A stretch of 64,000 bases of DNA from Octopus vulgaris (taxonomy: Eukaryota), in the NCBI GenBank assembly GCA_951406725.2, contig OX597816.1, forward strand, positions 172,670,001 through 172,734,000. Direction: 5' to 3'. Position numbers: made by a program. Within the stretch, counting starts at the first letter, position 1. The number at the start of each line of letters is the position of its first letter. This document shows, piece by piece, positions 46,300 to 47,006 of the stretch.

Positions 46300-47006
46300 T
46301 ACAGCAACTATTCAGGTCCACCACCACCACCAATAGCCTCACCGCCACCTCCACCACTACCAGTTTCTACTTACACTATACTGCTACTGTCACTGCTACT
46401 ACGGTTAAACTTCCCTCCTCCTCCTCCTCCGTATCCTCCTTCGGCCATTGTGGCTATTGAACTCATCACTGCAACTACTACAGCTACTGGCTGTTGGTGT
46501 TACTGCTGCTGTTGCTGTTGTTGTTGTTGTTATCACTGCTATTGCCGCTACTGGTGTCGTTGCTATAGTTGTTGTTGTTTGTTGTTGTTGTTGTGAATGC
46601 AAGTTCGATCGACGGTCGAAAATTGGCCGCCGCCGCTCGCCCGCCCGCTCGCCCGCCAGCCAAGCCAGCCAGCCAGCCTGCCTGCTTTCAACAGTTAGCC
46701 GCCGAGAGCCGCGCAGGGCGCGATCCCCGACTCCCAAACCAGAAAAAAAAAAAAAAAAAGAAAAAAAGCATGCCTCGTTCGTTCATGGTGAAATGTGGAG
46801 TGAGACGGCGCTGTGGACTTCAGTCGTCACCCAACCGGGTGGATTCTGACTACCTGGAGGAGTACTTCCCCGCAATCAGTGAGTTTCAAAACAACAAATA
46901 TTATATATGCGAATACACACTCCTATTATGTTTAATGTATACGGCGCATTGCTTTCTTGCCAGTTATACTTACGAATGTACGTATGTATGTATGTGTGTG
47001 TGTATG

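What the first reader, a model, noticed from the sequence alone, without database searches (positions are those of the whole stretch)
46770..46884. Hidden first exon of a SNAG-domain repressor with a variant motif (MPRSFMVKC)
Seen: the exon is buried inside a junk 389-aa ORF. It has an ATG in good context, 36 codons and a phase-1 GTGAGT donor, downstream of the window's most CpG-dense stretch. Established: SNAG (MPRSFLVK) must be N-terminal to bind LSD1 and occurs in Snail, Scratch, Gfi1, Ovo and Insm families. Here Leu6 is Met. No zinc-finger or homeobox exon is recognisable in the next 17 kb, so the family cannot be assigned and automatic annotation could miss this exon.
Basis: partly seen in the sequence, partly recalled or inferred. 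Interest (0 to 1): 0.7.

Follow-up and report, generated by a model that had tools for sequence, protein, structure and literature searches.

The report
Octopus Gfi/Senseless gene's first exon
This short stretch is the real first coding exon of the octopus version of the Gfi/Senseless zinc-finger repressor, and it carries the N-terminal SNAG 'hook' that papers have described as a vertebrate-only feature of that gene family.

Summary
ATG at 46770 opens 36 codons plus one base, and a GTGAGT donor follows at 46879-46884. All of this sits inside a 389-aa stop-to-stop frame whose remainder is (ATGT)n repeat.

The 36 residues match residues 1-36 of a public Octopus vulgaris protein model exactly (A0AA36F1P7, 635 aa). 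The match breaks at the predicted splice. No other part of that protein lies in the window, so intron 1 is at least 17,122 bp.

The family can be assigned:
- The model's zinc fingers are 84-91% identical to Gfi-1/Gfi-1b.
- The Argonauta hians orthologue (929 aa) has the same MPRSFMVK start.
- Its four fingers are 82-88% identical to 38 Gfi-type proteins and at most 53% identical to other zinc-finger proteins.

Met6 is not unique: two wrasse gfi1ab proteins carry it too.

The exon is therefore real and already annotated, though unnamed. Published passages call SNAG vertebrate-only, or a vertebrate acquisition, within this family, and this octopod gene argues against that. LSD1 recruitment is inferred, not shown.

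The parts
46770..46878 (+). Coding part of exon 1 of the octopus Gfi/Senseless-type gene: 36 codons plus the first base of codon 37
   Evidence: Sequence. ORF list. 36 of 36 residues identical to residues 1-36 of P0001, with the match ending exactly here.
46770..46796 (+). SNAG core, MPRSFMVKC, with Met instead of Leu at position 6
   Evidence: MPRSFMVK is also found in Argonauta P0002 and in two wrasse gfi1ab proteins. 33 other stored Gfi proteins have MPRSFLVK.
46845..46877 (+). Second conserved patch of the exon (SDYLEEYFPAI), shared with Argonauta
   Evidence: Pairwise alignments. 19 of 36 exon-1 residues are identical overall, concentrated in the SNAG core and in this patch.
46879..46884 (+). 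Splice donor GTGAGT, phase 1
   Evidence: Residue 37 of P0001 is K, whereas the genomic read-through gives S. Argonauta has R at that place. Both K and R can start with the A at 46878.
46879..64000 (+). Intron 1, at least 17,122 bp and running off the window. It contains the (ATGT)n array at 46976-47651.
   Evidence: No tblastn match to residues 37-635 of P0001 in the window. No C2H2 pattern. Tandem repeats.
46597..46740 (+). G+C- and CpG-rich stretch just upstream (69% G+C, 19 CpG in 144 bp). Putative promoter or 5' UTR. It holds the only upstream ATG (46597, 33 codons, another frame).
   Evidence: The role is inferred because the transcription start is unknown.
46743..46767 (+). A-rich leader (17 A, G, 7 A) ending two bases before the ATG
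   Evidence: Function not tested.

Best explanation
Bases 46770-46878 are the first coding exon of the octopus orthologue of the Gfi-1 / Pag-3 / Senseless (GPS) zinc-finger transcription factors. The exon encodes an N-terminal SNAG domain and is spliced from a phase-1 GTGAGT donor. The intron is more than 17 kb long, and the exons for a long low-complexity linker and the Gfi-type C2H2 fingers lie outside the window.

Inferred mechanism:
1. The initiator Met is removed.
2. The free Pro-Arg-Ser-Phe-Met-Val-Lys end enters the catalytic cleft of LSD1/KDM1A as a mimic of the histone H3 tail.
3. LSD1-CoREST-HDAC complexes are thereby brought to the sites bound by the fingers, and transcription there is repressed.

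Shown: the exon, its frame, the donor, identity to a public model, conservation in a second octopod, and the Gfi type of the fingers. Inferred: transcription and splicing in vivo, Met removal, LSD1 binding by the Met6 variant, and repression.
For: - The exon is 36 of 36 identical to residues 1-36 of O. vulgaris A0AA36F1P7. The match ends exactly at the donor. phmmer against 1.84 billion representatives gives the same protein at E 6.8e-16.
- The Argonauta hians protein P0002 starts MPRSFMVK. It is 67% identical over the first 165 aligned positions, across the exon 1/2 boundary, and 19 of 36 identical within exon 1.
- The fingers of P0001 are 84-91% identical to proteins named Gfi-1, Gfi-1b or gfi1ab.
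- The four-finger block of P0002 is 82-88% identical to 38 Gfi-type proteins. It is 69% identical to one degraded Gfi-named model (P0051) and at most 53% identical to the remaining zinc-finger proteins. In all, 119 of the 122 other stored proteins gave a hit.
- In the PDB, Gfi-1 fingers 3-5 (2kmk) score 163 bits over 81 residues, against 77 bits for SNAI1.
- Review passages: the first nine SNAG residues bind the LSD1 cavity like H3; positions 1 and 2 after Met removal are crucial; INSM1's variant SNAG also binds (PMC5453194).
- Met6 also occurs in 2 of the 35 stored vertebrate Gfi proteins that carry a SNAG start.
Against: - No transcript or read evidence was available to me. The junction rests on two gene models.
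- The O. vulgaris model is clearly faulty at its 3' end. It has only two finger matches and about 130 unrelated C-terminal residues compared with Argonauta, so it is not a curated reference.
- The finger exons are outside the window, so linkage of this exon to them comes only through those models.
- Nothing I read tests Leu-to-Met at this SNAG position for LSD1 binding. Cys at position 9 is also unusual.
- The 36-aa phmmer search did not recover Argonauta or any Gfi protein at E <= 0.001, so exon-1 similarity beyond octopods is weak.
Confidence: 0.85

Rival explanations
1. The exon is real and belongs to the Gfi-type gene, but the Met6/Cys9 variant no longer acts as an LSD1 hook. It would be a relic, or it would bind another partner.
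For: Position 6 is Leu in 33 of 37 stored SNAG starts. No passage I read tests Leu-to-Met. No paper in the library holds MPRSFMVK or PRSFMV.
Against: The eight-residue core is identical between Octopus and Argonauta, while the next residues diverge, which indicates constraint. The residues reported as crucial, Pro and Arg, and the Phe are all kept. INSM1's more divergent SNAG still binds. Two wrasse gfi1ab proteins carry the same Met.
Confidence: 0.1
2. The public models are chimeras. The SNAG exon would belong to another SNAG family gene (Snail, Scratch, Insm, Ovo) or to an unannotated gene, and would have been wrongly joined to downstream Gfi finger exons.
For: The O. vulgaris model is visibly wrong at its 3' end. 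The first intron is very long, over 17 kb. I had no read evidence.
Against: Two separate annotations (O. vulgaris and A. hians) join homologous first exons to the same conserved second-exon sequence at the same position. The O. vulgaris pipeline used Octopus and Sepia proteomes, not Argonauta (passages of PMC10700109). The residues after the core loosely follow the vertebrate Gfi pattern in a six-sequence alignment; that evidence is weak.
Confidence: 0.04
3. It is a chance open frame in repeat-rich non-coding DNA.
For: It lies inside a 389-aa frame that is otherwise microsatellite, in a window full of such frames.
Against: About 8e-5 occurrences of the pattern are expected, and 0 were seen in 300 shuffles. 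There is an exact match to a public protein with a break at a consensus donor. The sequence is conserved in Argonauta.
Confidence: 0.01

Closest known systems
Vertebrate GFI1 / GFI1B (growth factor independent 1)
   Same: An N-terminal SNAG start (MPRSF-VK). The last four C2H2 fingers are 83-87% identical to the Argonauta orthologue. The two fingers in the O. vulgaris model are 84-91% identical. Some wrasse gfi1ab proteins even share Met6.
   Different: The stored vertebrate proteins have six fingers and 349-466 residues. The octopod proteins have four fingers (Argonauta) and 635-929 residues, with long Gln/His/Asn-rich linkers. Position 9 is Cys in Octopus. Outside the SNAG core, N-terminal similarity is slight.
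Drosophila Senseless and C. elegans PAG-3 (protostome GPS proteins)
   Same: The same finger family. Senseless also has only four fingers, lacking the first two (passage in PMC2889900).
   Different: They are reported to lack a SNAG domain (passages in PMC2889900, and PMC9098437). The octopod proteins have one. I did not examine the Senseless or PAG-3 sequences themselves.
Argonauta hians hypothetical protein Ahia01_000342100 (P0002)
   Same: Orthologue. It has the same MPRSFMVK start and is 67% identical over the first 165 aligned positions. The exon boundary is at the same place, and the last two fingers are the same as in the O. vulgaris model.
   Different: It has a four-residue insertion in the exon-1 peptide. 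It is longer (929 aa) and has a complete four-finger C-terminus that the O. vulgaris model lacks.
Snail / Scratch superfamily
   Same: An N-terminal SNAG domain used as an LSD1 hook (passages in PMC5453194). SNAG is evolutionarily labile, with many losses (PMC2688512).
   Different: The fingers are not of this type. SNAI1 scores 77 bits against 163 bits for Gfi-1 over fewer residues. No Snail or Scratch protein appeared among the 120 listed relatives.

Membership tests
SNAG-domain repressors (domain level) | The motif sits at the very N-terminus (Met1-Pro2), so that a free Pro end can form | tested here: met
   46770 is the first ATG in the frame, and there is an upstream in-frame stop. Both public models start here.
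SNAG-domain repressors (domain level) | Core sequence Pro-Arg-Ser-Phe-Leu-Val-Lys/Arg | tested here: inconclusive
   Six of the seven core residues are kept, and Leu is replaced by Met. The residues reported as crucial, Pro and Arg, are kept. The same Met is seen in 2 wrasse Gfi proteins. The effect of the change has not been measured.
SNAG-domain repressors (domain level) | Binds LSD1/KDM1A-CoREST and represses transcription | not testable with these tools
Gfi-1 / Pag-3 / Senseless (GPS) zinc-finger family | C-terminal tandem C2H2 fingers of the Gfi type | tested here: met
   This was not tested in the window itself but through the public models that contain this exon. P0001's fingers are 84-91% identical to Gfi-named proteins. 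P0002's four fingers are 82-88% identical to 38 Gfi-type proteins against at most 53% for other zinc-finger proteins. The best per-residue PDB match is Gfi-1, 2kmk.
Gfi-1 / Pag-3 / Senseless (GPS) zinc-finger family | Finger number: six in general, five in PAG-3, four in Senseless (passage in PMC2889900) | tested here: met
   Argonauta P0002 has four fingers by pattern count. They align to the last four of six in vertebrate Gfi proteins, which is the Senseless-like number. The O. vulgaris model shows fewer, and its 3' end looks mis-built.
Gfi-1 / Pag-3 / Senseless (GPS) zinc-finger family | This exon is transcribed and spliced to the finger exons | not testable with these tools
   Support is indirect only. 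There are two independent gene models. The O. vulgaris annotation pipeline combined Iso-Seq, RNA-seq, protein alignments and ab initio prediction (passages of PMC10700109). Which evidence supported this particular gene is not known to me.
Snail / Scratch superfamily | Snail-type or Scratch-type zinc fingers behind the SNAG domain | tested here: not met
   SNAI1 (3w5k) scores 77 bits against 163 bits for Gfi-1. All high-identity relatives are Gfi-named.

The most novel reading that the evidence does not exclude
The SNAG domain is an ancestral bilaterian feature of Gfi/Pag-3/Senseless proteins. It is retained in octopods (Lophotrochozoa) and vertebrates and was lost in flies, nematodes and Daphnia. 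It was not a vertebrate acquisition.

Because it sits on a tiny first exon tens of kilobases upstream, it may also have been systematically missed in invertebrate gene models. If so, LSD1-dependent repression by this family would be far older than stated, and the co-activator-only picture drawn from Senseless would be the derived state.
Probability: 0.55. Interest if true: 0.55.

Novelty: new member of a known kind. Interest (0 to 1): 0.42.

Why it matters
Two papers whose passages I read place SNAG only in vertebrate members of this family. [quoted passage not shown] The other says vertebrate GFI1 proteins 'have acquired' it (PMC9098437).

An octopod Gfi-type gene with a conserved SNAG start is a protostome counter-example. 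It bears on how the dual repressor and co-activator roles of Gfi/Senseless in sensory-cell and neuronal specification evolved.

Practically, it names an unnamed O. vulgaris gene model and flags that model's faulty 3' end. It also shows that a 109-base first exon more than 17 kb upstream carries the family's key effector motif. That is a reason to look for it again in other invertebrate Gfi models, such as the spider and whipworm models seen here, which have no SNAG start.

The find is modest. The domain, the family and the likely mechanism are all known.

Tried and rejected
- The 36-aa query was below the tool's 40-aa minimum. I repeated it with four read-through codons added.
- The three weak hits besides P0001 (P0121-P0123, E 8.5e-6 to 7.4e-4) match internal parts of the query and have no SNAG start or fingers. 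I treated them as spurious.
- So this is only weak evidence that other Octopus annotations lack the exon. The word index also missed Argonauta.
- The ESM Atlas gave no usable hit.
- No Rfam family matched in the window.
- No Pfam family matched four repeat-like ORFs.
- The 2004 Gfi/Pag-3/Senseless review (PMC517899) is not held. I know its view only as cited by PMC2889900.
- Searches for Gfi with octopus or cephalopod each found one irrelevant review.
- I found no paper reporting SNAG in an invertebrate Gfi protein. Only the listings and two papers' passages were read.
- **No joined exon model.** Only one exon lies in the window, and it was searched on its own. The later parts of the gene were judged from the public records P0001 and P0002 as returned by the tools.
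- **Not checked.** Orthologous DNA from other cephalopods therefore stayed unchecked.
- **Not human.** I do not take the window for human. It matches an Octopus protein exactly and has cephalopod-like repeat content.

Full report
**The observation**

- ATG lies at 46770.
- The open frame reads MPRSFMVKCGVRRRCGLQSSPNRVDSDYLEEYFPAI, which is 36 codons (46770-46877).
- One more base, A, lies at 46878.
- GTGAGT follows at 46879-46884, so the intron is in phase 1.
- The ATG has A at -3 and C at +4. It is the first ATG in its frame, after an in-frame stop near 46566.
- The stop-to-stop frame 46569..47738 is 389 aa. Beyond the donor it is only the translation of an (ATGT)n array, 46976-47651, 169 copies.

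A SNAG-like pattern occurs once in all six frames. About 8e-5 occurrences are expected from residue frequencies, and none appeared in 300 shuffles.

The 'most CpG-dense stretch' claim is nearly right. 46631-46730 has 14 CpG at 75% G+C and ranks second among 100-bp windows, behind 771-870 with 16. At 2 kb the tandem array in 26001-28000 leads.

**What it is**

I read the exon four codons into the intron to reach the search tool's 40-aa minimum. It found one protein, O. vulgaris A0AA36F1P7 (P0001, 635 aa, source name 'AA'). Identity was 100% over 90% of the query, meaning the 36 exon residues and not the four intron codons.
- Residue 37 of P0001 is K, whereas genomic read-through gives S. That is what a phase-1 splice after the A at 46878 predicts.
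- An exhaustive phmmer search of the 36 residues against 1.84 billion representatives gave P0001 at E 6.8e-16. It also gave three weak hits, which I reject.
- tblastn of P0001 against the window matches residues 1-36 only, and no intact C2H2 pattern exists in any frame. Intron 1 is therefore at least 17,122 bp, and the rest of the gene is outside the window.

I take the window to be Octopus DNA, from O. vulgaris or a very close relative. I do not take it for human.

**Family**

P0001 carries C2H2 fingers (Pfam). In a whole-protein search these were 84-91% identical to proteins named Gfi-1, Gfi-1b or gfi1ab. Generic poly-zinc-finger proteins scored high only by repetition.

The nearest relative is Argonauta hians Ahia01_000342100 (P0002, 929 aa, E 2.4e-163).
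- It starts MPRSFMVKSGGKRKHSGVLDLSSNPSKLHSEYLEDYFATL.
- It is 67% identical to P0001 over the first 165 aligned positions, running straight across the exon 1/2 boundary.
- Within exon 1, 19 of 36 octopus residues are identical. These are the eight-residue core and an S-[DE]-Y-L-E-[ED]-Y-F patch.
- P0002 ends in four fingers. This 113-residue block is 82-88% identical to 38 Gfi-type proteins, 69% to one degraded Gfi-named model, and at most 53% to the other zinc-finger proteins stored. 119 of the 122 other stored proteins gave hits.
- The block aligns to the last four of the six vertebrate fingers.
- In the PDB, Gfi-1 fingers 3-5 (2kmk) give 163 bits over 81 residues. SNAI1 gives 77 bits.

The gene is thus a Gfi-1/Pag-3/Senseless (GPS) family member. 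It has the four-finger layout that a passage of PMC2889900 reports for Drosophila Senseless.

**The variant motif**

Among 123 stored proteins, 37 have a SNAG start. Of these, 33 have Leu at position 6 and 4 have Met: the two octopods and the gfi1ab proteins of two wrasses.

Passages of a review (PMC5453194) state the following:
- The first nine SNAG residues occupy the LSD1 catalytic cavity like the H3 tail.
- The first two residues after Met removal are crucial.
- Changing the Phe to Met raises hexapeptide affinity about ten-fold.
- INSM1's divergent SNAG binds with similar affinity.

Nothing I read tests the Leu position. Retention of LSD1 binding by the Met6 form is therefore an inference, supported by strict conservation of the core between two octopod families.

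**Mechanism**

After Met removal, the Pro-Arg-Ser-Phe-Met-Val-Lys end is proposed to dock in LSD1 and bring LSD1-CoREST-HDAC to sites bound by the Gfi-type fingers. All of this is inferred from the vertebrate family. None of it is shown for octopus.

**Comparison with the literature**

- PMC9098437 (passages) says vertebrate GFI1 proteins 'have acquired' SNAG and that Senseless lacks it.
- Passages of PMC2688512 and PMC2942887 report many convergent losses of SNAG in Snail/Scratch and in Fezf.

Against that background, an octopod GPS gene with SNAG fits ancestral presence followed by loss in the ecdysozoan models better than a vertebrate gain. One lineage cannot exclude an independent gain.

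My searches found no paper on Gfi in octopus or cephalopods. They found none with MPRSFMVK and none reporting SNAG in an invertebrate Gfi protein. For those last searches I saw listings only, plus passages of the papers named above. The 2004 family review was not held.

**Was the exon hidden?**

Not entirely. The O. vulgaris annotation contains it. That pipeline combined Iso-Seq, RNA-seq, protein alignments and ab initio predictions (passages of PMC10700109).

However, the first 160 residues of P0001 found only P0001 and P0002 among proteins of 349-1112 aa. I therefore saw no comparable model from other Octopus species. This is weak evidence, because other lengths were not searched and the word index missed Argonauta.

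The spider and whipworm Gfi-type models seen here have no SNAG start. That may be real, or it may be the same kind of missed upstream exon.

**Limits**

- No read data were available.
- No cephalopod genomes could be searched.
The single window exon was searched alone, and the later parts were judged from public records.

**Verdict**

This is a real, correctly delimited first coding exon. The family is now assigned and the mechanism is inferred. It is a new, unnamed member of a known family, with a modest evolutionary twist.

Noticed in passing
outside the window: protein P0001 (O. vulgaris A0AA36F1P7), residues about 441-635: The public O. vulgaris model looks mis-built at its 3' end. Compared with Argonauta it skips the stretch holding the first two of the four fingers, breaks off inside the last finger, and ends in about 130 unrelated residues.
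   Followed up: partly
window 26309-28019: A large G+C-rich tandem array. TRF periods are 32, 48 and 80, that is a 16-bp unit in roughly 107 copies with 94% matches. It gives three 630-690-aa open frames on the minus strand and the highest CpG count per 2 kb in the window (114, observed/expected 1.66).
   Followed up: partly
window, 14 sites from 16773 to 57924, both strands: A dispersed short repeat whose translation contains RLPN[PQ]LTR occurs 14 times, 7 on each strand. It looks like a SINE-like element. No Rfam family matched in the window.
   Followed up: partly
window 602-988 and 36307-36690 (+): Two copies of the same repeat-borne open frame, 283 of 310 aligned bases identical. The first contains the window's densest 100-bp CpG stretch. 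No Pfam match.
   Followed up: partly
window 15538-16614 (-): A 359-aa open frame without simple repeats, possibly a mobile-element remnant. No Pfam family at E <= 0.01.
   Followed up: partly
window 45880-46592: A run of trinucleotide microsatellites (TCA, TCT, ACT, TTC, TTA, then GTT-rich) lies directly upstream of the G+C-rich stretch and the exon. An A17-G-A7 tract ends two bases before the start codon.
   Followed up: no
stored proteins P0072 and P0117 (wrasse gfi1ab): Two labrid fish Gfi1ab proteins carry the same Leu6-to-Met SNAG variant as the octopods, presumably independently. P0072's model has four extra residues before the SNAG Met, which would bury the motif if real.
   Followed up: no
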